From assembly GCA_044892525.1 (NCBI GenBank), contig CM097888.1:75702001-75766000 (forward strand): a DNA stretch of 64,000 bases, given 5' to 3'. Within the stretch, counting starts at the first letter, position 1. Each line of letters opens with the position of its first letter. The stretch is from Schmidtea polychroa (taxonomy: Eukaryota). The notes beneath the pieces were generated by a model. It searched no databases. It worked only from the letters and a program-made list of their open reading frames with translations, and was not told where the DNA came from. Position numbers and translations under genes: made by a program. Of this stretch, positions 1 to 64,000 are shown one piece after another.

Positions 1-80
1 ATTAAATGATAAAACACATTTTAATTAACTAAGTCAAACAATTCACAATATATATTTTATTATTCACATAAATTTAATTG

Positions 81-3000
81 TTAAAGTGCTTGTTTCGATT
101 TGCATTCATTTCTAGACATAGCAGTTGCAATATGCATTTGGCGAATCTTATAGTGACCGTAGGCATAACTTTCATTACAATTGTACCAATACCTTTTATC
201 GTCCAAACATTGGAGAGCTCGTTTTTCTGTCATGAAAGTATACAACTGATGATTGACACTTCCTATTCTTTTTTGTGAGATGCTCACTGTTCCACCATCA
301 GTATACACTTTTTTATAGGCTTCATGTGTAAGATTAGAGTTTGTAAGTCTTATTCCTTTGGCTTTTAGAGTGTTTTTATCGCCTTGGAGTGAGTAGCACT
401 TGGGTCGAAGAAACACCCATTCTTTATATTGATTTCCTTTATTCTCATCCTTGAATTTCCCGATTACCGAACAAATTTTATCTGAGAACAATGGATCAGT
501 CACTGGATAATTTGAAGTATCTAGGAGCCCATCGGCAATCATTTTTGGATATAGTTGTAAGCGTAAATCTACATTTTTACACTCTAAAAAGAAGGAATCT
601 GTGTCACCGGCTACGATATTAATTTGACAATTGAATTCTTCTCTATAACTCTGTAGTTCTTTATATTGAAACTGGTACATGCGAAGTTTGGATAAATCAA
701 GTACGGTTTGTCCAATATACATTGGTCTATCTAAACACACAATTTCCTTATTGAGTATAACAGCAATGAGATCATCCGCAATCTTGATGCTACGACGAAA
801 CATAGGATTACTACAATAAGTTATCAATCTTTTGCTTTTGCTGCATAATCTCAAATTTATACGTTTCTTCAAGTTTTCCACAGTTTTACCGTATAAACTG
901 TTGTTCTTTAACTTATAATAATCTCGCTGAAACGAATCTGTACTAGCTGCTCTCATTTTGGTATTGTAATCAATATAACCTTTGAAAATAGCCACTTGCT
1001 TGAATTCTACAGCACGATTAACTTTTGTGACTTTTGCGCCGTAACTCAACCACTCTGTCAAAACTCTACCATTAACTACATAGTTTTTCTTAGGCTCATG
1101 AGTTAACAACAGCTTTTCAACTTTACTACCAGGTGGATAACAAAGCTCAGGAGCTATAGGTAAATCATCTAGTTTATCTTGTATACTATCAGGAATGACG
1201 ATGTCAACCTCTAGAACATATCCAAGATCTCCATCAAACTTATCCCCATTTGCACATCTTTCAACAATACCATTCATTTCAGTCTGATCATTTATCCATC
1301 TAAATTCACCAACAGGAAGTTTTTGCGACAGCGCCCATCCATATAAATTATTAACATCTAGGTATGACATTTGTGTTGATTCATCAGCTTCAACATGATG
1401 TTTGTTGATAAATGTCATTCCACCACGAATACCAGCTTCAAATAAACGGTAAAGCTCTGGATCTTGAATAAGTTCTACTGGTTCAGGTAACTGTTTAATA
1501 GCTGATGCCCAACTTAATCCGGGTATGGAAACAAACGATAGAGCCTCAAGTCCATCTTCGTCAAATGTTTTTTCTCTGAAAGCTTCAAAAACATCGGCCA
1601 ACAGAAAAACATCCAACTTGAGATATACTAGCATGTAATCTAGCAGTGTCTCACAGTTGTATTGTCGCCAGATTCGATTTGCATGTATATAATCTTCTTG
1701 ACTAACTCCCTCCCAAATCGGTGGTAATTCTGTTATTGACTGTAAAACATCCATTGATGTAGCCATATCATAAGGAAATATGCCTTTACCAGTTATTAAA
1801 TGCGAATTGAAAATCTTTGAAGTAAGTGGAAGACGTGGCAAGTTTTTTGATAAATTTGCCAAGCTGCTATTTAAAAATTGTAAAGAATCAATGAATCTAA
1901 TTCTTCTGCCTTTCGATGTCGCTGTAAGTGTGAGAAACTTTTCTGTTGATTGAGGAATAAGAATTAAATTCCAATCGGGGAATTTTCCAATTGCATATTT
2001 TAATATATGATGAATGTCATATCCACGAAGATTATGAAATACAACAGGTAAAGACGGATTGATTCTTCTAGCCAAATTACAATCTTGACACGCTGCTCCG
2101 AGATATTGACCGGTAAAATGATCATGATCCCGAACAGGTATATTGATAATCTTTTTACAAAGGTAGCAATGAGTTTGATTCGTAAATTCTTCCTGCTGTT
2201 CCCAAGTGAGTTCCATCATTTCCTTCGATCCATTAATTTTATACCACGGATAAACTATGTCTGTAGCTATATCATCCAATGCTTGTATAAACTGAATGAT
2301 ACAGTTTTTCCCAACAAATGTTTCATTTCGAATCGGACAACCTTGATGAAGAAGCACAAATTCAGATGCAATCGGCTCATGTTTTTGGAAGTGCTTGTCA
2401 TCTAGAGGTAATATTGATTCAAAGTCCGCGTAGACAACAAACTGCTGTTTTATAGTTTTACTCCAGTCTTTAAATTCGATATATTTATTCTCTGGCATTG
2501 AGTATAGAGTCGTCCACTCCACATTCTTCCTACAAAGACCTATATGTCTTTCAAAAGCAGGACGTTTTTGAAACCCATGAAGACACGTATGACACCAATG
2601 TGATTGGATTCTGACTCCTTCTACTCTATCTCTGTAATTGAGCAGTCGATCGAGATTAGTTACAGCCAAAAAATGATAATTTAATTCTAAAATTTAGTTA
2701 ATATTTTTAATGATTAAAAGAAATATTACCTTCTTCAATCAATAAGAGATATAATTGACATCCCGTCGAAGTACTTCTATATACCAAGTCAACGAACGGA
2801 TTCTTGAAAATATCATTAGTTTTTTGTTTAATTGGATCTTTATTATATTTGAGAACATTGATCGCTAGATTAGGATTCATTGCCTCAAATTGGCAAATGT
2901 TAACCAACTTCATTGGAAACCAATCTGATTTCCATTTTAACTCTAAATATATATATATTTTTAGAATGATATAAATATATATTACCACTTAAATTATATT

Positions 3001-4058
3001 TCATTACTCTTTCTCTGTGGTGTTTTATGTCATCATAATGTAATACGGCCAGTATGCTATATAAAAAGCAGAATTGATCATTATTTTGAACATTAACTAA
3101 AGCCTGGCAGTTTTTCAGGTAATTTGGCGTTTTAATGTAACTTGAACCTAAGTAAATATCTTGATTTATATATATAATAATGTAAATAAACTTACCAGAT
3201 ACATGTATTATGTCTGATAATTTAGTTAAAATCATAGTAACTTCTAATATTTTATGAATTCTCCACCCACTACTTTGTTGAGTGTATTTCTCCAACTTTT
3301 CTTTTAATTTTTCAATTCCATCATTAATAAATGAAGATGACATTGTAATTGCTTTATTCGACAAACACCATTTTTTAATTTCACCATCCTCTTTGATAAA
3401 CTCTGCACAAAGTCCAAATTGGATTTTTACTGTACCCATTCGTTGAATATGATCTTCTATTTCTCTGATGAGACAATCTGGAACAACAATGTCAGGAGAA
3501 TTAATTGCAGATACATCGCTTGTCAATTCAACACGAGAACCATTTAAGTCAGACTCCCGACGTGGACACAATTGTATGTTAGAGTCTCCATTTCCGTAAA
3601 ATATTGACTTTCGTTTTGTGGTGCCAGAGTTTTGTCTAACTATATTTATAATTAATATTAAACAACTTAAATAACATAACTTGTAACATATTCTTTAATC
3701 TGCTTAGGATCGTATGATGTATTCATTTTCGGTTGTACTATAAAAAATTAATAATTGTTAATAGTAGAAAGAGTATTACTTTTAGTGATCATCCTGCTCT
3801 TCGTTTCTTCGAATCTTCTAAGATGGTGTCCGTGTTGTCGTACAAACATTAACCACCTACCTGGTGATATAATGAGACATTCCGGACATATGTAACCCGA
3901 TAAGGTAGAGTCATTTATCTTGAAATATGATGATGTAACTGATTTACAGTTCTCCACATCTTCATGACTTTCGGCAATACAAAATTTATATAAACTGCAT
4001 CCGTTCACTAAAAGAAAATAATCATTAATATTAGATAGAGAATAAAAAATTATTCACT
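81..4058 (-). CDS. polB: Protein-primed family B DNA polymerase (Polinton/Maverick type), spliced; left mirror copy, 1236 aa predicted
   Basis: Mirror image (12218-x) of 8160-12137. Introns at 4008-4057, 3738-3779, 3640-3680, 3148-3195, 2943-2985 and 2687-2729. Joins ORFs 3748-4008, 2900-3571, 2707-2988 and 81-2669. The translated ORFs are identical to those of the right copy. Confidence 0.88.
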
Positions 4059-4319
4059 TATATAAGTTAAATTAAAAGTTTAAATGACAAACATTTGAAA
4101 AGTTACTGCTTATATATTACACATGATTAAATTCTGACCAATCAAAATCAAGGAAGGGGTAGGAAAAATAAATATATTCTGACCAATCAAAATCAAGGAA
4201 GGGGTAGGAAAAATAAATGTGTTACAGTATTTTAAAAGTTCAATATATTTTAAAACACATTTTGATGCTAAAGTTGACTTATTTAACATTTTCATAATAA
4301 TTTAATAAAAATAATGTGA

Positions 4320-4790
4320 TGAACCCACAAAGTAATATCATTTTTCATCAAATTGCAAAACAGTAATAACGTTTTCATAAAATTGTAACAAAATAATAAC
4401 ATATTTCAGATAAATTTTCAACAGTTGTAAAATATTTAAACAAATTGTAACAAGATTAGAAAATATTACAACAAAGTAGTAACATATTTCAGAAAATTTC
4501 AACAAAGTTGTAAAATATTTATCAAATTGTAACTAAAATAATAAAAATATTGCAACAAAGTAATAAAATAATGATGTTAATTGGGACAAATCAATACATT
4601 ATTTCGAAGACGGACAACAAATTAAAAAGAATATTGTAATAAATTGTGAAGTCTTTCAGTAAATTACAACAAAGTAATAACATATTTCGGAAATATTTCA
4701 CCAGATGTAAAATATTTAAGCAAAATGTTATAAGATTATAAAAATATTGCAACAAAGTAATAAAATAATACAACATTTTAAACTCTAGAT
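4320..4790. repeat. Degenerate AT-rich tandem repeats (AAATTGTAACAAA / AACATATTTCAG type); mirror at ~7428-7898
   Basis: Recurrent imperfect phrases such as caacaaagtaataa, aacatatttc and gttgtaaaatattt. Confidence 0.7.
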
Positions 4791-5830
4791 CAATCCATTT
4801 TATAGAAAATTAAATTTTATCTCTATAATATATGAATAAATATACAAGGAAATTACGTTAACTGTATGAAAAATACAAATTTATCGTAAAAAACATGTGT
4901 GTATTACACACAACATACAAGACATAATTTTTAATCAAGCTATTTTATAGAAAATTAAATTTTATCTATATATTATATGAATAAAATCCTAAGAAAATTA
5001 CGTTAACTATATGAAAAATACAAATTTATCTTAAAAACATGTGTGTATTACACACAGAACAAGATACATAATTTCTAATCAATCCATTTTATAGAAAATT
5101 AAATTTTATCTCTATAATATATGAATAAATATACAAGGAAATTACGTTAACTGTATGAAAAATACAAATTTATCGTAAAAAACATGTGTGTATTACACAC
5201 AACATACAAGACATAATTTTTAATCAAGCTATTTTATAGAAAATTAAATTTTATCTATATAATATATGAATAAATATTCAAGGAAATTACGTTAACGTAT
5301 AATAAATACAAATTTATCATAAAAACATGTGTGTATTACACAAAAAAAAAACAAGATACATAATTTCTAATCAATCCATTTTATAGAAAATTAAATTTTA
5401 TCTATATAATATATGAATAAAATCCTAAGAAAATTACGTTAACTATATGAAAAATACAAATTTATCTTAAAAACATGTGTGTATTACACACAGAACAAGA
5501 TACATAATTTCTAATCAATCCATTTTATAGAAAATTAAATTTTATCTATATATTATATGAATAAAATCCTAAGAAAATTACGTTAACTGTATGAAAAATA
5601 CAAATTTATCGTAAAAACATGTGTGTATTACACACAAAGCGACAAACTAAAATTGTAATTGAGCCATTTTATAGAAAATTAAATTTTATCTATATAATAT
5701 ATGAATAAAAATCCAAGAAAATTACGTTAACCGCGCGAAAAATACAAATTTATCGTAAAAACATGTGTGTATTACACACAAAGCGACAAACTAAAGTTTT
5801 AATTGAGCCATTTTGTAGAGAATTAAATTC
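4790..5830. repeat. ~145-bp tandem array (7 units plus a partial), left arm
   Basis: The TTTTATAGAAAATT anchor recurs at 4798, 4943, 5087, 5232, 5379, 5523 and 5667, with a variant at 5811. Most units contain the inverted repeat TGTGTGTA-T-TACACACA and all contain ATTACGTTAAC. Confidence 0.95.
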
Positions 5831-5900
5831 TGCCTATACATGGTTACACTTAAATCCCAATCGAACAAAGAGAAAAGAGAGAAAAAGAGAGAGAAAAAAC

Positions 5901-6235
5901 AGTAGAGTAGGGTATTGTGTGGACCCGGGAACAAAGACATATGACGTCATCGATGACGTCACAAAGAAATATGACGTCATACCCCCCTACCCCCCCCCCC
6001 GGGGGAGGGGGGGGGTTTTTAAATTTTTTTTTTTTTAAATTTTTTTTAAAAATTTTTTTTTTAAATTTATATTACGTTGCGGTATTTTAAAATTTATATT
6101 ACGTTGCGGTATTTTAAAATTTATATTACGTTGCGGTATTTTAAAATTTATATTACGTTGCGGTATTTTAAAATTTATATTACGTTGCGGTATTTTAAAA
6201 ATATATTACGTTGCGGTATTTTAAAATTTTAATTA
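5901..6235 (+). mobile_element. End module, copy 1: AGTAGAGTAGGG start, three TGACGTCA, C-run/G-run stem, six 27-bp ACGTTGCGG repeats
   Basis: TGACGTCA at 5942, 5954 and 5972; C-run 5982-6000 followed by G-run 6001-6015; ACGTTGCGG at 6074, 6101, 6128, 6155, 6182 and 6208. Homologous to 44740-44998 (minus) and 63128-64000. Confidence 0.8.
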
Positions 6236-6387
6236 TATTTTATTCACATCATTCGTAAGGTCTTGAAGAGATCTATGCAAAGGTTTCACCCGGGTCCACA
6301 CAATACCCTACTCTACTGTTTTTTCTCTCTCTTTTTCTCTCTTTTCTCTTTGTTCGATTGGGATTTAAGTGTAACCATGTATAGGCA

Positions 6388-7428
6388 GAATTTAATTCTC
6401 TACAAAATGGCTCAATTAAAACTTTAGTTTGTCGCTTTGTGTGTAATACACACATGTTTTTACGATAAATTTGTATTTTTCGCGCGGTTAACGTAATTTT
6501 CTTGGATTTTTATTCATATATTATATAGATAAAATTTAATTTTCTATAAAATGGCTCAATTACAATTTTAGTTTGTCGCTTTGTGTGTAATACACACATG
6601 TTTTTACGATAAATTTGTATTTTTCATACAGTTAACGTAATTTTCTTAGGATTTTATTCATATAATATATAGATAAAATTTAATTTTCTATAAAATGGAT
6701 TGATTAGAAATTATGTATCTTGTTCTGTGTGTAATACACACATGTTTTTAAGATAAATTTGTATTTTTCATATAGTTAACGTAATTTTCTTAGGATTTTA
6801 TTCATATATTATATAGATAAAATTTAATTTTCTATAAAATGGATTGATTAGAAATTATGTATCTTGTTTTTTTTTTGTGTAATACACACATGTTTTTATG
6901 ATAAATTTGTATTTATTATACGTTAACGTAATTTCCTTGAATATTTATTCATATATTATATAGATAAAATTTAATTTTCTATAAAATAGCTTGATTAAAA
7001 ATTATGTCTTGTATGTTGTGTGTAATACACACATGTTTTTTACGATAAATTTGTATTTTTCATACAGTTAACGTAATTTCCTTGTATATTTATTCATATA
7101 TTATAGAGATAAAATTTAATTTTCTATAAAATGGATTGATTAGAAATTATGTATCTTGTTCTGTGTGTAATACACACATGTTTTTAAGATAAATTTGTAT
7201 TTTTCATATAGTTAACGTAATTTTCTTAGGATTTTATTCATATAATATATAGATAAAATTTAATTTTCTATAAAATAGCTTGATTAAAAATTATGTCTTG
7301 TATGTTGTGTGTAATACACACATGTTTTTTACGATAAATTTGTATTTTTCATACAGTTAACGTAATTTCCTTGTATATTTATTCATATATTATAGAGATA
7401 AAATTTAATTTTCTATAAAATGGATTGA
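6388..7428. repeat. ~145-bp tandem array, right arm (mirror copy)
   Basis: Reverse complement of 4790-5830. Confidence 0.95.
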
Positions 7429-7999
7429 TCTAGAGTTTAAAATGTTGTATTATTTTATTACTTTGTTGCAATATTTTTATAATCTTATAACATTTTGCTT
7501 AAATATTTTACATCTGGTGAAATATTTCCGAAATATGTTATTACTTTGTTGTAATTTACTGAAAGACTTCACAATTTATTACAATATTCTTTTTAATTTG
7601 TTGTCCGTCTTCGAAATAATGTATTGATTTGTCCCAATTAACATCATTATTTTATTACTTTGTTGCAATATTTTTATTATTTTAGTTACAATTTGATAAA
7701 TATTTTACAACTTTGTTGAAATTTTCTGAAATATGTTACTACTTTGTTGTAATATTTTCTAATCTTGTTACAATTTGTTTAAATATTTTACAACTGTTGA
7801 AAATTTATCTGAAATATGTTATTATTTTGTTACAATTTTATGAAAACGTTATTACTGTTTTGCAATTTGATGAAAAATGATATTACTTTGTGGGTTCATC
7901 ACATTATTTTTATTAAATTATTATGAAAATGTTAAATAAGTCAACTTTAGCATCAAAATGTGTTTTAAAATATATTGAACTTTTAAAATACTGTAACAC

Positions 8000-8110
8000 A
8001 TTTATTTTTCCTACCCCTTCCTTGATTTTGATTGGTCAGAATATATTTATTTTTCCTACCCCTTCCTTGATTTTGATTGGTCAGAATTTAATCATGTGTA
8101 ATATATAAGC
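8000..8110 (+). promoter_or_regulatory. Putative Pol II promoter of polB: duplicated 45-bp unit with reverse CCAAT boxes, then a TATA-like element (mirror at 4108-4218)
   Basis: ATTTATTTTTCCTACCCCTTCCTTGATTTTGATTGGTCAGAAT at 8000-8042 and 8045-8087; ATTGG at 8031 and 8076; TATATAAG at 8102-8109, about 50 bp before the predicted A|TG. Confidence 0.6.
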
Positions 8111-8159
8111 AGTAACTTTTCAAATGTTTGTCATTTAAACTTTTAATTTAACTTATATA

Positions 8160-11100
8160 AGTGAATAATTTTTTATTCTCTATCTAATATTAATGATTAT
8201 TTTCTTTTAGTGAACGGATGCAGTTTATATAAATTTTGTATTGCCGAAAGTCATGAAGATGTGGAGAACTGTAAATCAGTTACATCATCATATTTCAAGA
8301 TAAATGACTCTACCTTATCGGGTTACATATGTCCGGAATGTCTCATTATATCACCAGGTAGGTGGTTAATGTTTGTACGACAACACGGACACCATCTTAG
8401 AAGATTCGAAGAAACGAAGAGCAGGATGATCACTAAAAGTAATACTCTTTCTACTATTAACAATTATTAATTTTTTATAGTACAACCGAAAATGAATACA
8501 TCATACGATCCTAAGCAGATTAAAGAATATGTTACAAGTTATGTTATTTAAGTTGTTTAATATTAATTATAAATATAGTTAGACAAAACTCTGGCACCAC
8601 AAAACGAAAGTCAATATTTTACGGAAATGGAGACTCTAACATACAATTGTGTCCACGTCGGGAGTCTGACTTAAATGGTTCTCGTGTTGAATTGACAAGC
8701 GATGTATCTGCAATTAATTCTCCTGACATTGTTGTTCCAGATTGTCTCATCAGAGAAATAGAAGATCATATTCAACGAATGGGTACAGTAAAAATCCAAT
8801 TTGGACTTTGTGCAGAGTTTATCAAAGAGGATGGTGAAATTAAAAAATGGTGTTTGTCGAATAAAGCAATTACAATGTCATCTTCATTTATTAATGATGG
8901 AATTGAAAAATTAAAAGAAAAGTTGGAGAAATACACTCAACAAAGTAGTGGGTGGAGAATTCATAAAATATTAGAAGTTACTATGATTTTAACTAAATTA
9001 TCAGACATAATACATGTATCTGGTAAGTTTATTTACATTATTATATATATAAATCAAGATATTTACTTAGGTTCAAGTTACATTAAAACGCCAAATTACC
9101 TGAAAAACTGCCAGGCTTTAGTTAATGTTCAAAATAATGATCAATTCTGCTTTTTATATAGCATACTGGCCGTATTACATTATGATGACATAAAACACCA
9201 CAGAGAAAGAGTAATGAAATATAATTTAAGTGGTAATATATATTTATATCATTCTAAAAATATATATATATTTAGAGTTAAAATGGAAATCAGATTGGTT
9301 TCCAATGAAGTTGGTTAACATTTGCCAATTTGAGGCAATGAATCCTAATCTAGCGATCAATGTTCTCAAATATAATAAAGATCCAATTAAACAAAAAACT
9401 AATGATATTTTCAAGAATCCGTTCGTTGACTTGGTATATAGAAGTACTTCGACGGGATGTCAATTATATCTCTTATTGATTGAAGAAGGTAATATTTCTT
9501 TTAATCATTAAAAATATTAACTAAATTTTAGAATTAAATTATCATTTTTTGGCTGTAACTAATCTCGATCGACTGCTCAATTACAGAGATAGAGTAGAAG
9601 GAGTCAGAATCCAATCACATTGGTGTCATACGTGTCTTCATGGGTTTCAAAAACGTCCTGCTTTTGAAAGACATATAGGTCTTTGTAGGAAGAATGTGGA
9701 GTGGACGACTCTATACTCAATGCCAGAGAATAAATATATCGAATTTAAAGACTGGAGTAAAACTATAAAACAGCAGTTTGTTGTCTACGCGGACTTTGAA
9801 TCAATATTACCTCTAGATGACAAGCACTTCCAAAAACATGAGCCGATTGCATCTGAATTTGTGCTTCTTCATCAAGGTTGTCCGATTCGAAATGAAACAT
9901 TTGTTGGGAAAAACTGTATCATTCAGTTTATACAAGCATTGGATGATATAGCTACAGACATAGTTTATCCGTGGTATAAAATTAATGGATCGAAGGAAAT
10001 GATGGAACTCACTTGGGAACAGCAGGAAGAATTTACGAATCAAACTCATTGCTACCTTTGTAAAAAGATTATCAATATACCTGTTCGGGATCATGATCAT
10101 TTTACCGGTCAATATCTCGGAGCAGCGTGTCAAGATTGTAATTTGGCTAGAAGAATCAATCCGTCTTTACCTGTTGTATTTCATAATCTTCGTGGATATG
10201 ACATTCATCATATATTAAAATATGCAATTGGAAAATTCCCCGATTGGAATTTAATTCTTATTCCTCAATCAACAGAAAAGTTTCTCACACTTACAGCGAC
10301 ATCGAAAGGCAGAAGAATTAGATTCATTGATTCTTTACAATTTTTAAATAGCAGCTTGGCAAATTTATCAAAAAACTTGCCACGTCTTCCACTTACTTCA
10401 AAGATTTTCAATTCGCATTTAATAACTGGTAAAGGCATATTTCCTTATGATATGGCTACATCAATGGATGTTTTACAGTCAATAACAGAATTACCACCGA
10501 TTTGGGAGGGAGTTAGTCAAGAAGATTATATACATGCAAATCGAATCTGGCGACAATACAACTGTGAGACACTGCTAGATTACATGCTAGTATATCTCAA
10601 GTTGGATGTTTTTCTGTTGGCCGATGTTTTTGAAGCTTTCAGAGAAAAAACATTTGACGAAGATGGACTTGAGGCTCTATCGTTTGTTTCCATACCCGGA
10701 TTAAGTTGGGCATCAGCTATTAAACAGTTACCTGAACCAGTAGAACTTATTCAAGATCCAGAGCTTTACCGTTTATTTGAAGCTGGTATTCGTGGTGGAA
10801 TGACATTTATCAACAAACATCATGTTGAAGCTGATGAATCAACACAAATGTCATACCTAGATGTTAATAATTTATATGGATGGGCGCTGTCGCAAAAACT
10901 TCCTGTTGGTGAATTTAGATGGATAAATGATCAGACTGAAATGAATGGTATTGTTGAAAGATGTGCAAATGGGGATAAGTTTGATGGAGATCTTGGATAT
11001 GTTCTAGAGGTTGACATCGTCATTCCTGATAGTATACAAGATAAACTAGATGATTTACCTATAGCTCCTGAGCTTTGTTATCCACCTGGTAGTAAAGTTG

Positions 11101-12137
11101 AAAAGCTGTTGTTAACTCATGAGCCTAAGAAAAACTATGTAGTTAATGGTAGAGTTTTGACAGAGTGGTTGAGTTACGGCGCAAAAGTCACAAAAGTTAA
11201 TCGTGCTGTAGAATTCAAGCAAGTGGCTATTTTCAAAGGTTATATTGATTACAATACCAAAATGAGAGCAGCTAGTACAGATTCGTTTCAGCGAGATTAT
11301 TATAAGTTAAAGAACAACAGTTTATACGGTAAAACTGTGGAAAACTTGAAGAAACGTATAAATTTGAGATTATGCAGCAAAAGCAAAAGATTGATAACTT
11401 ATTGTAGTAATCCTATGTTTCGTCGTAGCATCAAGATTGCGGATGATCTCATTGCTGTTATACTCAATAAGGAAATTGTGTGTTTAGATAGACCAATGTA
11501 TATTGGACAAACCGTACTTGATTTATCCAAACTTCGCATGTACCAGTTTCAATATAAAGAACTACAGAGTTATAGAGAAGAATTCAATTGTCAAATTAAT
11601 ATCGTAGCCGGTGACACAGATTCCTTCTTTTTAGAGTGTAAAAATGTAGATTTACGCTTACAACTATATCCAAAAATGATTGCCGATGGGCTCCTAGATA
11701 CTTCAAATTATCCAGTGACTGATCCATTGTTCTCAGATAAAATTTGTTCGGTAATCGGGAAATTCAAGGATGAGAATAAAGGAAATCAATATAAAGAATG
11801 GGTGTTTCTTCGACCCAAGTGCTACTCACTCCAAGGCGATAAAAACACTCTAAAAGCCAAAGGAATAAGACTTACAAACTCTAATCTTACACATGAAGCC
11901 TATAAAAAAGTGTATACTGATGGTGGAACAGTGAGCATCTCACAAAAAAGAATAGGAAGTGTCAATCATCAGTTGTATACTTTCATGACAGAAAAACGAG
12001 CTCTCCAATGTTTGGACGATAAAAGGTATTGGTACAATTGTAATGAAAGTTATGCCTACGGTCACTATAAGATTCGCCAAATGCATATTGCAACTGCTAT
12101 GTCTAGAAATGAATGCAAATCGAAACAAGCACTTTAA
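8160..12137 (+). CDS. polB: Protein-primed family B DNA polymerase (Polinton/Maverick type), spliced; terminal-protein-like region, vOTU-like protease, Zn finger, exonuclease with HNH/EndoVII insert, polymerase
   Basis: Motifs: ExoI VVYADFES, ExoII FHNLRGYD, ExoIII YLKLDVFLLADVFE, pol A YLDVNNLYGWA, pol B KLKNNSLYGK, pol C AGDTDS, LRPKCY, KAKGI; EndoVII-like CYLC..VRDHDHFTGQYLGAACQDCN; N-terminal SGWRI, GSSYIKTP, NNDQFCFLYSILA and NYHFLAVTNLDRLL. Manual splicing: exons 8160, 8211-8438, 8481-8537, 8579-9022, 9071-9232, 9276-9488, 9532-12137 = 3711 nt, one open frame. The core from 9532 is certain; the upstream exons are inferred from GT-AG sites that keep the frame. Confidence 0.9.
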
Positions 12138-12156
12138 CAATTAAATTTATGTGAAT

Positions 12157-12162
12157 AATAAA
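12157..12162 (+). terminator. Candidate polyadenylation signal of polB
   Basis: AATAAA 20 bp after the TAA at 12135-12137; weak evidence in AT-rich DNA. Confidence 0.35.
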
Positions 12163-12462
12163 ATATATATTGTGAATTGTTTGACTTAGTTAATTAAAAT
12201 GTGTTTTATCATTTAATTATTCATTTGTCCAATTAATTTAGATAATTAGTTTCAAGTAAGAAATATTATTTTTGTGTTTATTTTATTTATTTATTTATTT
12301 TTTCCGAAATATTAATATCCAGTTTATCTAAAATTAACTCAGCGTTTTATTTTATAATAAATTAAATAATTTCTAATTAAAATTTATTCAAATTGAATAA
12401 TTACTAATTAAAATTTTATTCAAATTGAAATATTATCGTTATAATTTACCTCTTGTTAGAAT

Positions 12463-12606
12463 NNNNNNNNNNNNNNNNNNNNNNNNNNNNNNNNNNNNNN
12501 NNNNNNNNNNNNNNNNNNNNNNNNNNNNNNNNNNNNNNNNNNNNNNNNNNNNNNNNNNNNNNNNNNNNNNNNNNNNNNNNNNNNNNNNNNNNNNNNNNNN
12601 NNNNNN
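12463..12606. other. Assembly gap ending the right arm region (other gaps: 13481-13667, 14203-14439, 44355-44525, 57074-57208)
   Basis: Runs of N. Confidence 0.99.
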
Positions 12607-13003: not shown

Positions 13004-13480
13004 CTAGCTGAGGCCCCGATATTAGTCAAGATAATTTGATAGTATGTATCTCACCGAAGGGTCAACAATGTCACTGGAATTATTGTCTAGTTAATGATAT
13101 TTTCTGTATTATTAGTTACTTTTACTAAAATATACAGTTGAAATAAATTTATTTTTTCATCACAATGCAGTTTGATATACAATATTTCGAGTTTTACCGT
13201 CAGGAGCAAAAACTTACAAATTCTTCCCAGTTCCTATTCTTGAACACGACACATACAATTGACCATGGGAAAAGCAAGGAGTTCCTAGATTAATACCAGT
13301 AACTTTAAATGATTGACCTTGAGCTTTATTAATAGATATTGCAAAAGCAAGACACATTGGAAACTGAAGACGCTTAAACTCAAACGGCATATCATTAGGA
13401 AACATGGGAATTCTTGGTATAATGCCGTTCTTAATATCGAAATACCTTACTAAAATTGGAGAAAGTTTTATTTTAGTGTG
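13004..13480 (-). mobile_element. Helitron 3' remnant: PIF1-type helicase C-terminus and CTAG end
   Basis: [38 protein letters not shown]...[13 protein letters not shown] matches Helitron helicase motifs. A GC-rich subterminal segment ends CTAG|T at 13004-13007. Confidence 0.85.
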
Positions 13481-13848
13481 NNNNNNNNNNNNNNNNNNNN
13501 NNNNNNNNNNNNNNNNNNNNNNNNNNNNNNNNNNNNNNNNNNNNNNNNNNNNNNNNNNNNNNNNNNNNNNNNNNNNNNNNNNNNNNNNNNNNNNNNNNNN
13601 NNNNNNNNNNNNNNNNNNNNNNNNNNNNNNNNNNNNNNNNNNNNNNNNNNNNNNNNNNNNNNNNNNNTTTCTAGGAGAGCTACATTCACATCCAAAATGT
13701 GTATGCGATACTTACATAATATTTACCTACAATGCAATAAATTCATCACAATAAAACAAATATATGTCAAAATATGGAAAATTAAAGTATATAACTATTT
13801 ATTATAAAAAAATGTAACTTAGGAAATCAAATTTAATGAAAATTATTT

Positions 13849-14202
13849 TTATATAGAACTTTTCGATGTTGATGCTCTACATTGGGTTGAATCCACTAGA
13901 TTTTTGTAGTTTGGGATATAAGTGCTAAGACAACTTCTTAGGCTGGATTCCAAATGGTCATCTGTTAATGTTGCTCGGTACTTTGACTTTATAATTTTCA
14001 TATGTAAAAAAGCAGACTCACATAAATAAGTTGAACCAAAAAATGATACTAAATTTTCGAAGCATTTTTTCAAGATTGAATATTTATCCTCTAAGCATAA
14101 AACAGACATTTTATATAAAATCTAAAGTTATATAAAAAAAATTTTTTTTATGAAGATCTAATAAAAAATCCTTCGCGATCTACCGGTAGATCGCGATCGA
14201 CC
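13849..14202 (-). mobile_element. hAT (SPIN/Charlie/GTF2IRD2-like) transposase C-terminal remnant with subterminal palindrome
   Basis: FGSTYLCESAFLHMKIIKSKYRATLTDDHLESSLR is the hAT dimerisation-domain pattern; palindromic CGCGATCTACCGGTAGATCGCG at ~14175-14196. Confidence 0.8.
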
Positions 14203-14439
14203 NNNNNNNNNNNNNNNNNNNNNNNNNNNNNNNNNNNNNNNNNNNNNNNNNNNNNNNNNNNNNNNNNNNNNNNNNNNNNNNNNNNNNNNNNNNNNNNNNN
14301 NNNNNNNNNNNNNNNNNNNNNNNNNNNNNNNNNNNNNNNNNNNNNNNNNNNNNNNNNNNNNNNNNNNNNNNNNNNNNNNNNNNNNNNNNNNNNNNNNNNN
14401 NNNNNNNNNNNNNNNNNNNNNNNNNNNNNNNNNNNNNNN

Positions 14440-14926
14440 TGATAGCATTTTCTTGCAGTATTCATTAAATAGTATTCATTAGTAGCACAGTCCATGCTGC
14501 GAAAACTTTGATTATGGATTATTGTGTGAAAAGCGAAAGTACCCTCCATAACTGCCAATTTTTTTTCATTAGTTCCAAAAGTATTCCCTTTAAAAAATGT
14601 TGTCAGTTTGGATGTTGACGCTGCTGTGTCATGAGGCGTTTTATGTACTTTAGTTTTAATGTGTGCCGTTATTGCACTACGTCCATGAATTGCAATTGAA
14701 AATTCCCTATTGCAGATTGTGCATTTAACCAAGGAGTCACTGTCAAAATAATTTTAAATATTTAATTAATAAAATTGAAATAAAATAATCTAAAAAAATG
14801 TTTTAGAAATATAAGTGAGTACAAAATTATACAAATGAGTACTTTCAGAGTACAGGATTTGAAAAGAGTACGGTTTGCGAAAAAAAGAGTACAAATCTCA
14901 GTAAATGAGTATAGTTGGTCACCTTA
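14440..14926 (-). mobile_element. hAT-like transposase 5' remnant (Zn finger) with TAAGGTGACCA terminus
   Basis: VKCTICNREFSIAIHGRSAITAHIKTKVH followed by EGTFAFHTIIHNQSFRSMDC; the terminus resembles the TAGGGTGACCA hAT ends. Confidence 0.65.
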
Positions 14927-22229: not shown

Positions 22230-23135
22230 CAAATCCGTGGTGGAAAGGTGTCTAGAAGGTAAATATATCGATCCATTACCTGTTATATGATAACATAGAA
22301 CACTTGATGTTCGAATGAACTGAAAATACGAGTGATGGATCCAATGGGTTTACAATATGGCTGAAACTGGAGTGAAAAGAATCTTTTTTTGTGAACCGTA
22401 GAGAATCAGAAAAAACGCCTGAATTTGCGGCTATGCAATTCGGCTTCTAGGCTAATTACATATACATCTAAACTAACGTTTAAAAGGACTTATGAAATTG
22501 ACAATGACTTAGTATCAGTCTTGCTAAATAAGAAAGCTATTTGTTTAGATAGAACCAGCTACATTGGCCAAACGTACTTGATCTATTGAAACTTAGAATG
22601 TATCAGCTGCAGTATGAAGAGTTACAAAAATATTGTAACGAATTCAACTGTAAAATTAATATCGTTGCAGGTGATACGGATTCATTTTTCCTTGAAGTAA
22701 TAATTTGTAAGGTTGATGTTCTTTTACCAGCCATGATCCGGGATAATTTACTAGACACTTCTAATTATGATCCAATTCATCTCTTATACAGTAAGAACCT
22801 TGATTCTGTCGTTGGAAAGTCCAAAGACGAGAATAAAGGACTTAAATATAAGGATTGGGTTTTTCTTAGGCCTAAATATTATAGTTTGTTAGGTGATGAC
22901 GAGAGTAAAAACGCTAAAGGAGTAACATTGAAAGGTAGTGACATAAAACATCAGTCGTACATGGATTGTCATAATACTAACCAAATTTTTTCTATACCGC
23001 AAACTGGAATAACTAGCAAAAATCACCAGCTATTCACCTTAAAAAAATGAAAAACTACACTTATCAACGCAGATGATAAAAGAGTTTGGATGGGGAAAAA
23101 TAAAAGTTATGCATATGGGCATTATATGGGAGGTG
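22230..23135 (+). pseudogene. Decayed, divergent pPolB C-terminal half
   Basis: Fragments KSVVERCLEG; TVENQKKRLNLRLCNSASRLITY..LNKKAICLDRTSYIGQT; KLRMYQLQY..IVAGDTDSFFLE..FLRPKYYSL; DDKRVW..SYAYGHY. All align to the intact polymerase, with frameshifts and an internal deletion. Confidence 0.88.
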
Positions 23136-23689
23136 ACTCATTTGCTGTTTAATAATTCGATCCGGATCCATCATAGTCCCAACTCAAAGAAACAGCTGAA
23201 GATATACCGGATGTTATTTAAATAAATCTTTGTTAAAAAATTTGTTTTTATTGATTTTTTTGAATTAAATGTATAATAAGTTTAACTAATATATTTTGAA
23301 CATTTTTGTCTCAGTTTTCGTAAATTAGTAAAAAAGAGTATTAAGAATAACAGAGAAGAATTAATAATTTAAATATAAACTAAAATAAATTAAATTAAAT
23401 AATAAAATAAAAAAATAAAATTATAATAATTAATTAATTAAATAAAAATAATGAAATTAAATGAAATAATTAATGAAAATATTTGTTAACTTCTGATTAA
23501 TTATTGAGTAATAAGGGGGGTACCAAATTGCTACCTACTGTGAATTTTAAAGATTGTAATAAACCAATTATACGTTGGGTATTGTTATTAGTTATTAGTT
23601 TATAGAACACGAGTAGTCATAGGCACCAACTATTAGGGGTTAATAATTATAAAACCCAACAATTCAAATACCAAATACTCACACAGAAA

Positions 23690-25216
23690 TAATTATTAAA
23701 TGATGAATTGTAAAAAAATTAGTTTATTATTTTCTAACTCAACACATTGTAAAAAGTATTTTAAATTAAAATTTTACTTATAACTATGTAAAATTTAAAT
23801 GAATGGCAAATTTCATTTTATGATAAAACTCAAATAATTTTAAAATTTCTTAACTTTTTTTAAAAGAATTCCTTTTTTTTGATTCATTTAATTTTTATAT
23901 TTTGAAATTTGTGGATTTTTATGTATTATTATTTCTTGATATCAATATTTTATATCATTACATTCCGAACTAACTAGGTAATTTATAATATTAATATTAA
24001 AATATTATAATTATATAGAAATTATAAATGTAATAAAAATTATTTAATTTTAAATTTATTAAAAATACAAATATTAATTTTTTTTCAATTTTAATTGATA
24101 TAATAAAATAATTAAAATAACTAAAATAATAAAATAATTAAATAAAAAAATTAATTAAATGAGTTATTTTATTAAATTTTATTAAATTTCTTTTTGTAAT
24201 AGATTTATATAATTTTAAATTTAATTTATCTTATAATATAAAAATAAAGATATATTAAAATATATACCACTTAAAATGAATTCTTTAAAATGTGATGAGA
24301 TAGCATTATCATTATATATAAAAATTATCAACCGAAAACAAGTATTGTATATCATATATACAAAACCCACCGATCTTAAAACTTCTTTTTTTAAAAAAAT
24401 TGAAAAATTGAAAAAAACGAGATTCACGTTTTAAAGAGGACAATTACCTCTTTCATTATCAACAATTTGGTAAATTCTTTTGTAAGGAAAACGGCTGAGT
24501 TTTCAAATCTCGCGTAATAATAAATTTGAAACCTTTTTCTAAATCAGAATAATAAAAATTATACTTTATTTAGATCAAAATGGCAAATAAGCACCTGACA
24601 CTGTGTGAGATATTATTCTTTCCATTGAGAAGTACACTATTTACAATAATTTTTTTATTTTTAAATGTTTTATTAATAATATTTAAATTATAAATTTAAT
24701 TAAAATTATTTCATTTAAAATTTATTAATAATAATAAAAATATTTAATTATTTTATTGATATAATAAAATAATTAAATTCATTCTACAAATGAATTATCT
24801 TATTTCGTTACATTCCGAACAAACTAGCTAATTTAATTGGATTTATGTTTTAAAATTAACATTAAAATATTATAATTATATAGAAATGAAATTTTTAAGT
24901 GTTTCATTAACAATATTTAAGTTATAAATTTAATAAGAATTATTTAATTTTAAATTTATTAATAAAAATTTTACGTTTTTTCGATTTTATTTGAAATAAT
25001 AAAATAAAATAATTAAATTTATTCTACAAATAAATTATTTTTTTTAAATTAATGATAATTTTATTTTTGTGATAGTTTTGAATAATTTAAAATTTTTTTA
25101 AATTTAATTAAAAGAATTTTAGCCAATAGTATTTATGAAAATTAATAAAATTAAATTGTTAATTTTCAATTTTGGATCATGTTTAATATCAAATTCATCA
25201 AATTAAATATACAAAT
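23690..25216. repeat. Upstream flank of Rpt5 copy A, duplicated (inverted) upstream of copy B at ~49591-50770
   Basis: GCACCTGACACTGTGTGAGATATTATTCTTTCCATTGAGAAGTACACTATTTAC (~24591) has its reverse complement at ~50160-50215; 24210-24420 matches 50244-50430. Confidence 0.85.
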
Positions 25217-43249: not shown

Positions 43250-46200
43250 GATTCTCCGCTAAGTGTTGATGCCTTTACAAAAGATAATATTCACCTTTTT
43301 ATTCCCCAGCTTTTTTGACAAACTCTTTCCTTTTCTATTCGATTTAATTCTTTTCCACTTTTTACGTATCTCCTGGTTCTATATTTTCTTTTCCCTAAAC
43401 TTCCTAATTCATCTTTTCTTACACTCGTTCTCTTCGAATCCCTAGCTGAGGTTAAATGCCGGTTTGCTCTGATTTTCCCCATGCCTTATATACTCTTTGA
43501 AATCGGGATGAACAAAGGTTATTGCTAAGCCAATCTCTCTCCTGACATTTGACTCCACATATCTGCTACGGCTGTCAGCCAAACCTCTCTGGACGCCCTA
43601 TCTTTTTCTTGGTCTTCTCACATTAATCATTGTGATAAGATGGGCCTAAATTTTTCTTCTGTTTTCTTTTCTCTTTGTTTACCCAACTCGGAATTTCTTT
43701 CTACCTGCTAATTAATTAATTAATTGTATTTTCTTATTTTTCAACTTTTATATACTTTTTCGCTTTCTTCCTAACACTTTCTGAAAATTCCGTTATCACC
43801 ATGTTATTCCTTGCTACTTGCTCCACCCATAACCAATTTTCCAGACTCTAATTCGAATTTATGAATCTTTTATCGATTTTCCACAGTTCACATTTTTGTG
43901 CTTTTCCCTTATACTGATGTACCTTCTCGAGCCTTTCTATCCATTTTATTTCTTCGCATTGTCACCTCTCTCTCTGACCAATCTTACACTTCAATCATTC
44001 CTTTAATTACAAATATAATTCAATTTTACTTTTAATTAGTCTATAACCCCAACAAAATTAATATTTGACAAAACTATATATTAGACTTTATAGTACGGGT
44101 GATTACAAGATGAATGATGTAATAATATGTTTGTATACATATAGAAAATATAATAACACTTGTGAGCCATAATACACCTAATTACGAAAATCTAATCTAA
44201 AAAATCTAAAAAATCTAAAAAAATCAATAAATATATATTATAGGAACACACAAACTTACCTGTGTGTAAAAGTTTAATGCTTCGAAAGTTAACATATTTA
44301 TTATAGGAGTCGTAAAAGTGACAGAAAAGTAATTAAACGTACAAACACAAAACANNNNNNNNNNNNNNNNNNNNNNNNNNNNNNNNNNNNNNNNNNNNNN
44401 NNNNNNNNNNNNNNNNNNNNNNNNNNNNNNNNNNNNNNNNNNNNNNNNNNNNNNNNNNNNNNNNNNNNNNNNNNNNNNNNNNNNNNNNNNNNNNNNNNNN
44501 NNNNNNNNNNNNNNNNNNNNNNNNNATGTTAAAGTTTTGCCTTGAATATTTTTAGCAGTACTTTGTGAGCAGTACCTTTGTGAGTAGTACCTTTGTGACC
44601 ATTACCCTTAGGGGGACAGAATATCTTGTCGGATAGACTCAGACTATATATGATAATGCAAAGTATGTGTAAAGTATGTGCAATAATTTTATTCTGTCAA
44701 CTTTAGCGTCAAAATAAGTTTTAAAAATAAATTTTAATTTTAAAATACCGCAACGTAATATATTTAATAATTAAAATATAATTAAATTTTAAAATACCGC
44801 GACGTAATATATTTAAAAAGTATGATGAGTCATGTGTCTTTGTTAAAATGTCTTTGTTACGTTCTTTTTTTAAAAAAATTAAAAAAATTTTTTTTTAATT
44901 AAAAAAACACCCCTGCGGGGGGTATGACATAATTTCCTTTGTGACGTCATCGATTACATAACAGTTCTTTGTTCCCGGGTCCACAAATTATCCTACTTTC
45001 ACCATTCTCTAATTTACACCTATCCCGTTTCCAGTATCAATTTTGATAACATTTCACTTTATTCTACTTCCTCAGATTTGGGCATTTTTCTATTTCGTGT
45101 CTGGTTGTACCCTTTGTAGTTCTCTTTTTGGCATATCTTTCTTTTCCATTACTTTTCTACTTGACCGCCATTTTCTGTCGTTCAATTTCGGTTTTCCTTT
45201 TACTCGAAACTATTCAATTTAACATAATTTAATAATTTACTTTTACAACCTCAACATTCCTATTAATATTGTTATACTTATTATTGTTGTTGGTATCATC
45301 CTCACCATAGTAATTACTATCATCAGCATTATCGTGGGTATCACTACCCTTCTTATCATAAATAAGTATCTCCCCTTATTGTCATCGCTACTACTCTTTT
45401 CTTTGTTACCACTATTAGTTATTTATCATTAGTATTATTACTATATTTATTATAGATAAAATTATTATCATCTTTATTATTACTAGTGTTGGGTTTAAGG
45501 TAATTTAAGTCGGTAAACTCTGACTCCTCGTGTCCCTTTTAATCAAAACAATAAACTACCCAACGTATATTTCAATAACAAAAATATATTCTTTTCTCAA
45601 CAATAAACAATCAATAATCAAAGTCAAGTTTGACCGATTCGGCGTTCGGTGTTACATCCAAAAGATAATTTTCACCTTTTTATTTCTTCAGCTTCTCTCG
45701 ACCAACGTTTGCTTTTGCTATTTGGTTAGATTCATTTTTCCATTTTGTATCTCCTATTCTATATTTTCTTTTTCCCTAATCTCCTTATTTCGTCTTACCG
45801 TTTGCCTATTCTCGTTTCTTCTTACCCTAACTGAGGCAAAATGCCGATTATTTTGAATTTCGACTTTGCTTTTATACTGGAATAATCACTTTGATTAATC
45901 CGTTTTTGACCTGTTTGCTTCTATCTGACAATGGTTTGACAACCGGCTCCTTGAACGTTGTTTGCACCATATCATGATTAATTGGCTCCCTTTGCTATTC
46001 CTTCGTAATAGTCCTAACTTTGTTTGTCTCCATTCATCATGCTGTCATGATAATGGTCTTCCGAGATTCCCATTTTGTTTACTTTTCCTGTTAATCGAGC
46101 TCGGGTTTCCTTCATCTCTCGGGTTCTCCATTGGCTCGGGTTTCCTATTAGCTCGGGTTTCCTATTAGCCAATTAATTAATTAATTAACGATTTTCTGCT

Positions 46201-52895: not shown

Positions 52896-53361
52896 CTATT
52901 TTTACGAATTCGGCCATTGGCAGAATCTCTAATGCAACAGAAACATTGCATAAATTTAATTTAAATTATTTTTATATAAATAAATTAAAAAATTTTTCTC
53001 GTTCAAAATTTTAGGAAAAACAATATTCTACGCATGAAATATCTTTTTAGCATCTTCAGTTAGTTTGTTTTCCAAACCCTCGCATCAAATTTTGAATTTC
53101 CATTCGGTATCTGTGGACTGTAAATACAGTTATAATTATGATCAGTGATTGAATAAACACCCACTCCCAACATAAAAAAATTGTAAGACAATTTTTAAAC
53201 TCTCCCCGATGGATCGTTATGTAAATTGTAAACAGCCCCTCGTATCGGAATTGACAGTCTACATGTTAATAATTACTATTGTATAAAATTCAATTAAAAT
53301 TTTAAAAATAAAGAATAGCAGAATAAATTTCAAAGATTTTATTATAAATTATTTAAAAGCA

Positions 53362-63127: not shown

Positions 63128-64000
63128 AGTTATTTAGGGTAATGTGTGGAACCGGGAACAAAGACATATGACGTCATCGATGACGTCACAAAGACATATA
63201 ACGTCATACCCCCAGGGAGGGTTTTTTTTTAATTTAAAAAAAAAATTTTTTTTTAATTTTAAAAAAAAAATTTTTTTTTTTAATTTTTAAATATTTCAAA
63301 TATATTACGTTGCGGTATTTTAAATATATTACGTTGCGGAATTTAAAATTTAAAATACCGCAACGTAATCTATTTAAAATACCGCAACGTAATATATTTA
63401 ATAATTAAAATTCCGCAACGTAATATATTTAAAATATATTACGTTGCGGTATTTTAATTATTAAATATTTTACGTTGCGGTATTTTAAATATATTACGTT
63501 GCGGTATTTTAATTATTAAATATTTTACGTTGCGGTATTTTAAATATATTACGTTGCGGTATTTTAATTATTAAATATTTTACGTTGCGGTATTTTAAAT
63601 ATATTACGTTGCGGAATTTTAATTATTAAATATATTACGTTGCGGTATTTTAAATAGATTACGTTGCGGTATTTTAAATTTTAAATTCCGCAACGTAACA
63701 TATTTAAAATACCGCAACGTAATATATTTAATAATTAAAGTACCGCAACGTAATATATTTAAAATACCGCAACGTAATATATTTAATAATTAAAGTACCG
63801 CAACGTAAAATATTTAAAATACCGCAACGTAATATATTTAATAATTAAAATTCCGCAACGTAATATATTTAAAATACCGCAACGTAAAATATTTAATATT
63901 TAAAATACCTCAACGTAAAATATTTAATAATTAAAATTCCGCAACGTAATATATTTAAAATACCGCAACGTAAAATATTTAATAATTAAAATACCGCAAC
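63128..64000 (+). mobile_element. End module, copy 3, with an expanded ACGTTGCGG minisatellite in alternating orientations
   Basis: AGTTATTTAGGGTAATGTGTGGAACCGGGAACAAAGACATATGACGTCATCGATGACGTCACAAAGA, then CCCCCAGGGAGGG, poly-T/A and >20 units of ATATTACGTTGCGGTATTTT or its reverse complement up to the window edge. Confidence 0.88.

What the first reader, a model, noticed from the sequence alone, without database searches (positions are those of the whole stretch)
1..12217. Perfect 12-kb head-to-head palindrome carrying two divergent pPolB genes around a 359-bp loop
Seen: arms of at least 5.9 kb that look identical, even in homopolymer length and in the variant order of the tandem array, joined at CCCGGG around a unique spacer. 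Inference: this A-loop-A' geometry is what fold-back self-priming of a free 3' end produces. It could therefore be an integrated or episomal hairpin/inverted-dimer replication product of a pPolB element, a very recent inverted duplication, or a fold-back chimera from amplification or sequencing. Polinton-type elements are modelled as protein-primed linear replicons, so a real inverted dimer would point to a second, hairpin-primed replication route.
Basis: partly seen in the sequence, partly recalled or inferred. Interest (0 to 1): 0.8.

Follow-up and report, generated by a model that had tools for sequence, protein, structure and literature searches.

The report
Fold-back palindrome duplicating a Polinton-type polymerase
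A 12-kb mirror-image duplication of one virus-type DNA polymerase gene is really in this sequence, but it folds back inside a non-coding repeat found elsewhere without that gene and looks more like a template-switch or assembly product than a new way for such elements to replicate.

Summary
The palindrome is confirmed: arms 1-5929 and 6289-12217 have 0 mismatches in 5,929 bp around a 359-bp loop. The loop is not unique. 313 bp of it continue, across the arm border, the end of a non-coding foldback-like repeat family also found at 63135 and 44995, with unrelated flanks. pPolB lies outside that end, about 2 kb away. The gene is longer than reported: about 8210-12137, with five 41-48-nt GT-AG introns, a PRD1-like terminal-protein fold and all catalytic motifs. 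No integrase, ATPase or capsid gene was found nearby. The new joint is 6288/6289. Its 359-nt spacer and possible 6-nt overlap resemble phi29 amplification chimeras, and the palindrome fills almost all of a gap-bounded contig. Best reading: a fold-back made during amplification or assembly (0.48). A real host-made inverted duplication (0.32) is not excluded. A hairpin-primed pPolB dimer is unlikely (0.12), but two clusters of close relatives show contig lengths near 6.7 and 12.6 kb. Reads are needed to decide.

The parts
1..5929 (-). Left arm, exact reverse complement of the right arm; cut by the window edge 80 bp past the pPolB stop
81..4008 (-). Mirror copy of the intron-bearing pPolB gene
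   Evidence: mirror of 8210-12137
4789..5829 (.). 144-bp tandem array, 7.2 copies (left arm)
5908..6242 (+). End of a non-coding foldback-like repeat family: terminal motif, three TGACGTCA sites, C/G run, T tract, 27-bp array; spans the left-arm/loop border
5930..6288 (.). 359-bp loop (non-mirrored spacer)
6058..6229 (+). 27-bp tandem array, 6.4 copies, 96% matches
6243..6288 (.). 46 bp found nowhere else in the window; ends at the novel joint 6288/6289; no vector-like match
6289..6310 (-). Mirrored first 22 bp of the repeat end, starting at CCCGGG (candidate priming overlap)
6289..12217 (+). Right arm
6389..7429 (.). 144-bp tandem array, 7.2 copies (right arm)
7455..7866 (.). Degenerate AT-rich 31/83/197-bp repeats
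7940..7997 (+). 59-bp relic 83% identical to 44696-44754, the inner part of the family copy at 45 kb
8000..8087 (+). Perfect 45-bp duplication with CCAAT-like boxes, probable pPolB promoter (inferred)
8210..12137 (+). Polinton-type pPolB gene in six or more exons; start codon not located
8439..8480 (+). Intron 1, 42 nt, GT-AG
8538..8578 (+). Intron 2, 41 nt, GT-AG (only candidate with the needed phase; least certain)
8632..9021 (+). Terminal-protein (LF/PAD-like) domain
   Evidence: compare
9023..9070 (+). Intron 3, 48 nt, in frame; equals a 16-residue gap against P0003
9233..9275 (+). Intron 4, 43 nt; matches the frame 1 to 2 change
9489..9531 (+). Intron 5, 43 nt; matches the frame 2 to 3 change
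9532..12137 (+). Last exon: exonuclease, EndoVII-like insert, polymerase motifs A/B/C and KxY
12218..12462 (.). AT-rich run-on of the right arm up to the scaffold gap (12463-12606)
22395..23140 (+). Second, decayed pPolB (C-terminal part only; frame change near 22580, stop at 23050)
44688..44995 (-). Second copy of the repeat-family end
63135..64000 (+). Third copy of the repeat-family end, followed by arrays in both orientations that form an imperfect palindrome centred at 63678

Best explanation
One genomic segment (a lone, intron-bearing Polinton-type pPolB gene, its upstream arrays and the end of a foldback-like repeat) has been written twice by a fold-back. A strand ran through the repeat end to about 6288, switched back onto its own complement at the CCCGGG 359 nt upstream, and copied the upstream sequence in reverse. 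Shown: the geometry, the position of the joint, and that the fold is inside a repeat end found elsewhere without pPolB. Inferred: the template switch, priming at CCCGGG, and that it happened outside the cell, either as a strand-displacement amplification or library chimera or as an assembler walking one collapsed arm twice. pPolB is a passenger.
For: 0 of 5,929 positions differ, while other duplications in the window differ by 3-33%. The palindrome fills 12,217 of the 12,462 bases before the first N gap, and the window edge falls only 245 bp short of the mirror of that gap, as expected if position 1 is a scaffold end (inference). Repeat-family homology crosses 5929/5930 unbroken but is cut 22 bp into the end at 6288/6289. 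A transposase would join at the tip of the end, not 22 bp inside it (recalled). phi29 chimeras peak at 250-300 nt distance and 6 nt overlap (PMC4595205, passages); here the spacer is 359 nt and the possible overlap 6 nt. In yeast, fork-switch inversions prefer 40-80 bp spacing (PMC10766183, passages). Amplification palindromes do reach assemblies as inverted duplications (PMC6218980, passages). 0 of 61 related loci show a near-perfect head-to-head palindrome; 18 of these extend far enough upstream to show one.
Against: No reads, depth or library information were available, and it is not known that position 1 is a scaffold end. The overlap length at the joint cannot be measured from one copy. 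The same repeat family forms a palindrome with mismatched arms at 63.3-64.0 kb (85% over 300 bp), and the Rpt5 copies form diverged inverted duplications nearby, so real inversions occur in this region. A 6-kb inverted pair with a 280-bp spacer is stable in wild-type yeast (PMC7999016, passages), so the structure could persist in vivo. The assembly placed a 922-bp exact repeat twice without a gap, so it had some long-range information. No other long perfect fold-back is seen in the window. The 61 related loci are only 25-39% identical and form a separate clade, so they are a weak control.
Confidence: 0.48

Rival explanations
1. A real chromosomal inverted duplication made by host repair or replication. 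A break in or near the foldback-like repeat was resected, the 3' end folded back at CCCGGG and was extended. Alternatively, a larger central palindrome like the one at 63.3-64.0 kb lost most of one half by asymmetric deletion. The arms are very young, converted, or collapsed by the assembler.
For: The family's arrays switch orientation three times at 63.3-63.7 kb and form an imperfect palindrome. Three Rpt5 copies, 96-97% identical, lie in inverted and direct orientation nearby. Fold-back priming at short repeats yields large palindromes, and long spacers are tolerated (PMC7999016). Diverged inverted pPolB-integrase arms exist in related loci L046, L036 and L053/L061 (88-98%).
Against: No arm difference at all, even in homopolymers and a variable array. 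The palindrome coincides with a gap-bounded contig. The natural pairs in related loci are tail-to-tail, diverged and about 6 kb apart.
Confidence: 0.32
2. A genuine head-to-head dimer of a pPolB-only replicon of about 6 kb. The motif-and-array segment would be its end or hairpin, and it would replicate by fold-back priming alongside or instead of protein priming.
For: The polymerase looks intact and has no companion genes. Two clusters of relatives (P0007, 58% identical; P0028, 52%) show contig lengths in two modes, 4.1-7.3 kb and 11.3-12.6 kb, including the pairs 6,653/12,568 and 6,673/12,578. The window's arm plus loop is 6,533 bp, and the palindrome would be 12,707 bp if symmetric to the gap. 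Single-gene PolB segments with shared inverted ends exist in Vesanto virus (PMC8363768, passages), and mobile replicase modules have been proposed (10.64898/2026.10.13.758929, section 13).
Against: The central end occurs twice more with unrelated flanks and no pPolB. A terminal-protein fold is present. The DNA of the 12.6-kb contigs was not seen, and they may simply be ordinary full-length genomes; the P0018 cluster spreads over 5.8-16.3 kb and the P0031 cluster has no long mode. The loop's centroid fold shows little fixed structure beyond a small hairpin.
Confidence: 0.12
3. The true locus holds a roughly 400-bp MITE-like derivative with 22-bp terminal inverted repeats (5908-6310) and a different right flank. 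An assembler, gap filler or polymerase used the 22-bp repeat to exit back into the left flank.
For: The arms' inner 22 bp are exactly the family's terminal motif, preceded by TA in 3 of 3 independent ends.
Against: All 3 independent ends are of the long type, and no short end with a different flank was seen. 22 bp is below usual k-mer sizes (recalled), and this assembly resolved 184-bp and 922-bp exact repeats.
Confidence: 0.08

Closest known systems
phi29/MDA inverted chimeras and other fold-back sequencing or assembly palindromes (PMC4595205, PMC6218980, PMC9484634)
   Same: A-spacer-A' geometry, identical arms, spacer of a few hundred nt, possible 6-nt overlap, position beside a contig end
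   Different: Whether the library was amplified is unknown; no reads were seen
Polintons/Mavericks/adintoviruses (pPolB with TP-vOTU-EXO-PALM order; 10.1101/2024.03.18.585575, 10.1101/2023.08.22.554363, PMC8502044)
   Same: pPolB with a PRD1-like terminal-protein fold, all exonuclease and polymerase motifs and an endonuclease insert; more distant relatives sit beside rve integrase, A32 ATPase and capsid genes
   Different: Lone gene with five small introns; no integrase, ATPase, capsid or protease gene found; no terminal repeats enclosing the gene
Foldback-type non-autonomous DNA transposons (FB, Tetris; PMC4079207)
   Same: Non-coding end followed by internal tandem arrays that meet in opposite orientation (copy at 63.1-64 kb)
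   Different: Both ends and a target-site duplication were not seen for any copy; superfamily not assigned
In vivo fold-back and ODIRA inverted duplications (PMC10766183, PMC7999016)
   Same: Large palindrome with an interrupted centre and short homology at the joint
   Different: The 359-bp spacer exceeds the 40-80 bp preferred in ODIRA; no evidence that this joint exists in cells
Segmented bidna-like viruses (Vesanto virus; PMC8363768)
   Same: PolB on its own unit of similar size (segments are 3.3-5.8 kb); units share terminal sequence
   Different: There the inverted repeats flank the gene; here the gene itself is in the arms and sits in a host scaffold

Membership tests
Polinton/Maverick | Protein-primed PolB with intact exonuclease and polymerase motifs | tested here: met
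   DNA_pol_B_2 E 7.5e-31; Exo I-III, Pol A-C and KxY patterns found (patterns recalled)
Polinton/Maverick | N-terminal PRD1-like terminal-protein domain | tested here: met
   Model pLDDT 93.9; top match 4ir1_F, Z 8.2, rmsd 3.5, 100 aligned, with seven more Y-family polymerase chains in the top eight rows or close behind; adintovirus and MELD PolB top the viral library; same signature as in the paper. Z is only moderate.
Polinton/Maverick | vOTU protease domain after TP | tested here: inconclusive
   Conserved Cys and His columns lie in the expected region, but the domain was not folded and has no Pfam hit
Polinton/Maverick | rve integrase gene | tested here: not met
   0 of 143 ORFs of 58 aa or more hit rve; tblastn with 612 ORFs from 61 related loci hit only the two pPolB regions. 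Highly decayed or finely spliced genes could be missed.
Polinton/Maverick | Capsid, packaging ATPase and protease genes | tested here: not met
   same caveat, and the left flank lies outside the window
Polinton/Maverick | 100-1500-bp terminal inverted repeats enclosing the genes, with 5-8-bp TSD | tested here: not met
   The only terminus-like segment faces away from pPolB; no partner end downstream of the gene
Foldback-type transposon (central repeat) | Long ends with internal tandem arrays | tested here: met
Foldback-type transposon (central repeat) | Two inverted ends per element | tested here: inconclusive
   The copy at 63135 is symmetric about 63678, but its far end would fall near 64222, outside the window
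Foldback-type transposon (central repeat) | Target-site duplication | not testable with these tools
   No copy has both flanks in the window; TA precedes 3 of 3 ends
Amplification or assembly fold-back artefact | Identical arms, spacer of hundreds of nt, short overlap | tested here: met
   the overlap length is only a candidate
Amplification or assembly fold-back artefact | Single-copy depth; joint absent from unamplified reads | not testable with these tools
   No read data
Hairpin-primed linear replicon dimer | Symmetry centre at the replicon's own terminus | tested here: inconclusive
   The centre lies in a repeat end shared with two pPolB-free loci, though a 59-bp family relic also abuts the pPolB promoter
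Hairpin-primed linear replicon dimer | Same dimer in relatives | tested here: inconclusive
   0 of 61 distant loci; contig-length doubling in 2 of the 4 largest clusters tabulated; DNA not seen

The most novel reading that the evidence does not exclude
A clade of capsid-less, integrase-less, pPolB-only elements of about 6 kb exists as head-to-head palindromic dimers of about 12.5 kb, joined through an array-rich end and replicated by fold-back priming while keeping a terminal protein. The window holds an intron-bearing animal member, and the 6.7/12.6-kb contig pairs of the P0007 and P0028 clusters are its relatives.
Probability: 0.12. Interest if true: 0.8.

Novelty: new member of a known kind. 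Interest (0 to 1): 0.33.

Why it matters
If technical, it is a caution: perfect palindromes beside scaffold gaps can mimic replication intermediates of mobile elements and double a gene count. If it is a real host duplication, it shows a foldback-like repeat seeding a multi-kilobase palindrome in an invertebrate germline. Either way, the single-copy content has modest interest of its own: an apparently intact Polinton-type polymerase that carries five host-sized introns where close relatives read through, with no other Polinton gene beside it, which suggests long nuclear residence or domestication. If the dimer reading held, it would add a hairpin-primed route and a minimal replicon to a group modelled as protein-primed, and the relatives' contigs make that directly testable.

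Tried and rejected
Adapter or vector at the joint: 6200-6330 against plasmids gave only 3 weak matches, E 0.1-0.3, none over the joint; it does not resemble common library adapters (recalled). Known RNA in 5700-12500: 0 Rfam matches. Phage relatives of pPolB: none. Other Polinton genes in the window: none in Pfam (143 ORFs) or by tblastn (612 ORFs); Pfam found only pogo-like pieces, a PP2C piece and coiled-coil noise. Frameshifts instead of introns: rejected, because intron lengths match the frame changes and the 16-residue gap, and 70 of 73 full-length relatives match both the frame-1 and frame-3 exons within one protein. The central end as the pPolB element's own terminal repeat: disfavoured by orientation and unrelated flanks. 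DNA similarity of the centre or arrays to 61 related loci: none. A link between the 31-bp degenerate repeats and the 27-bp unit: 3 hits against a shuffle mean of 0.02, but the motif was written after seeing those repeats, so it is not counted. Instability as an argument against a real palindrome: rejected. Tree: quick method only, careful search unfinished, L006 dropped by the length filter. No solved terminal-protein structure appeared among the fold matches. Literature searches listed no title or abstract opening that describes a head-to-head pPolB dimer; most hits were seen only as listings, and no supplements were read.
Full report
Observation. Self-alignment gives one long inverted match, 1-5929 against 12217-6289, at 100%. 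A direct count gives 0 mismatches in 5,929 bp, and the match ends abruptly at the loop. The loop is 5930-6288 (359 bp). The longest other exact repeat from 5930 onward is 922 bp, between two Rpt5 copies; other duplications in the window are 67-97% identical. The window has five N runs of 135-237 bases, and the first begins at 12463. The palindrome therefore covers 12,217 of the first 12,462 bases, and the window edge falls 245 bp short of the mirror of that gap. That fits a scaffold end, but I cannot show that position 1 is one.

Host context. The window is 28% G+C and carries pogo-like pieces and a PP2C piece, PPTC7-like exons (name recalled) and three intronless Rpt5 copies. Their best named relatives are flatworms and other invertebrates at about 70%, so the host is an AT-rich invertebrate, not placed more closely.

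The centre is a repeat end, not unique sequence. 5908-6242 matches 63135-63472 and 44997-44730. The three copies begin at the same point, after TA, with a shared terminal motif, TGACGTCA sites, a C/G run, a T tract and arrays of a 24-31-bp unit. Their outer flanks are unrelated apart from one 29-bp weak match. The homology crosses the left-arm/loop border, so 5929/5930 is original sequence and 6288/6289 is the new joint; it cuts the end 22 bp in, at CCCGGG. Only 46 bp before the joint are unique, and they match no plasmid or Rfam family. In the copy at 63 kb the arrays switch orientation three times and form an imperfect palindrome about 63678, the layout of foldback-type elements (PMC4079207, passages). 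pPolB lies on the outer side of this end, behind a 144-bp array, degenerate AT-rich repeats and a 45-bp duplication. A 59-bp relic of the same family also sits next to the promoter region, which leaves a link between the family and the gene possible.

The gene. The 870-aa ORF hits DNA_pol_B_2 and weakly Endonuclease_7. Relatives reach 58-64% identity and 1,100-1,300 aa. They align upstream in frames 2, 1 and 2 before the long frame-3 exon. Five AT-rich GT-AG introns of 42, 41, 48, 43 and 43 nt account for the frame changes and for a 16-residue gap, and each exon is stop-free in its frame; PPTC7 has small introns of similar size. 70 of 73 full-length relatives match both the frame-1 and frame-3 exons within one protein. 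Some lie on contigs of 10-19 kb, so they are unlikely all to be spliced transcripts (inference). Splicing itself is not shown. Exonuclease and polymerase motifs are present (patterns recalled). Exon sequence 8632-9021 folds confidently (pLDDT 93.9) and matches the little-finger domain of Pol IV best (4ir1_F, Z 8.2, rmsd 3.5), the signature reported for PRD1-like terminal proteins of polinton pPolBs (10.1101/2024.03.18.585575, section 7). Adintovirus and MELD-virus PolB head the viral matches. The enzyme is thus built for protein priming. No integrase, ATPase, capsid or protease gene was found among 143 ORFs or by tblastn with 612 ORFs of related loci. A second, decayed pPolB lies at 22395-23140.

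Related loci. One scan of the genome collection gave 62 loci at 25-39% identity, 61 of which were analysed. None has a near-perfect head-to-head palindrome; 18 of the 61 reach far enough upstream to show one. Of 18 loci whose neighbours were scanned (120 hand-picked ORFs), 14 carry rve integrase or an A32 ATPase and one a double-jelly-roll capsid, so they are ordinary Polinton-like elements. They form a clade apart from the window's nearest relatives (quick tree), so they are a weak control. Against a purely technical view, L046, L036 and L053/L061 show natural, diverged (88-98%), tail-to-tail inverted arms around about 6-kb spacers; the arms carry integrase in all three, and a second pPolB is seen on the L053/L061 contig. 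For the nearest relatives only contig lengths were visible. The P0007 and P0028 clusters show modes at 4.1-7.3 kb and 11.3-12.6 kb, while the P0031 and P0018 clusters do not show this doubling; the other 16 clusters looked up were small and were not tabulated. This is suggestive numerology, not evidence of structure.

Mechanism. The shown facts are an A-loop-A' structure with one new joint inside a repeat end. The inferred mechanism is a template switch onto the strand's own complement, probably primed at CCCGGG. Where it happened cannot be settled without reads. A technical origin is favoured by perfect identity, coincidence with a gap-bounded contig, and resemblance to phi29 chimeras (peak distance 250-300 nt, peak overlap 6 nt; PMC4595205, passages; see also PMC6218980 and PMC9484634, passages), while fork-switch inversions in yeast prefer 40-80 bp (PMC10766183, passages). 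A real duplication is favoured by the family's own mismatched palindrome, the inverted Rpt5 copies, and the stability of a 6-kb pair with a 280-bp spacer in yeast (PMC7999016, passages). I give 0.48 to technical, 0.32 to host-made, 0.12 to an element dimer and 0.08 to mis-exit through a 22-bp terminal repeat.

Comparison with what is known. The gene works like a polinton pPolB. The locus fails membership as a Polinton: no integrase, no morphogenesis genes, no enclosing terminal repeats (features from 10.1101/2023.08.22.554363, PMC8502044 and PMC4196379, passages). Introns in polinton-like elements are known from dinoflagellates (PMC11957031, passages). PolB-only segments are known from Vesanto virus (PMC8363768, passages; PMC11071296, passages), and mobile replicase modules have been proposed (10.64898/2026.10.13.758929, passages and section 13). 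Six searches listed no paper whose title or abstract opening describes a head-to-head pPolB dimer; the library lacks most subscription journals and no supplements were read.

Verdict. The palindrome is in the sequence, but the case for a second, hairpin-primed replication route is weak. Interest 0.33. The bold reading keeps 0.12 and could be settled by self-aligning four contigs and checking read depth.

Noticed in passing
window 24568-26573, 48212-50236, 53266-54858: Three intronless, open Rpt5/PSMC3 copies, 96-97% identical, in inverted and direct orientation with very AT-rich flanks; two share 922 bp exactly.
   Followed up: partly
window 8210-12137: Lone, apparently intact pPolB with five 41-48-nt introns, all in its 5' third, where close relatives read through; possible domestication.
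   Followed up: yes
window 22395-23140: Second, decayed pPolB (68% DNA identity to the first), also followed by an A-rich tract and without other Polinton genes.
   Followed up: partly
window 63135-64000: Repeat-family end followed by arrays that switch orientation three times and form an imperfect, nearly spacerless palindrome at 63678; the far end would lie near 64222.
   Followed up: partly
window 44550-44615: A 15-bp unit array ending in a short motif that resembles the reverse of the family's terminal bases; possibly a related end.
   Followed up: no
window 27130-27704: Unrelated 38/75-bp degenerate tandem array.
   Followed up: no
window 43166-43494 and 45554-45878: Two 73%-identical purine-skewed segments with no Pfam hit, probably relics of another mobile element.
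   Followed up: no
window 13214-16290: Helitron-helicase-like, hAT-like and pogo-like (BrkDBD, DDE_1) fragments; only the pogo domains were confirmed by Pfam, the other names are recalled.
   Followed up: partly
L046 12786-22597; L036 12729-21772; L053 with L061: Three contigs of one bin show diverged tail-to-tail inverted integrase-bearing arms next to pPolB, around about 6-kb spacers that share sequence; on the L053/L061 contig pPolB is in both arms. Possibly a two-armed Polinton derivative.
   Followed up: partly
L015 11223-20727: 4.76-kb direct repeat at 99.6% containing the pPolB 3' half and integrase.
   Followed up: no
protein clusters of P0007 and P0028 (no window coordinates): Contig lengths fall near 5.7-7.3 kb and 11.3-12.6 kb, close to the window's arm-plus-loop and full palindrome sizes; DNA not seen.
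   Followed up: partly
P0006; P0008 and P0312-P0314 (no window coordinates): P0006 is 96% identical to part of the window's polymerase, from another contig.
   Followed up: no
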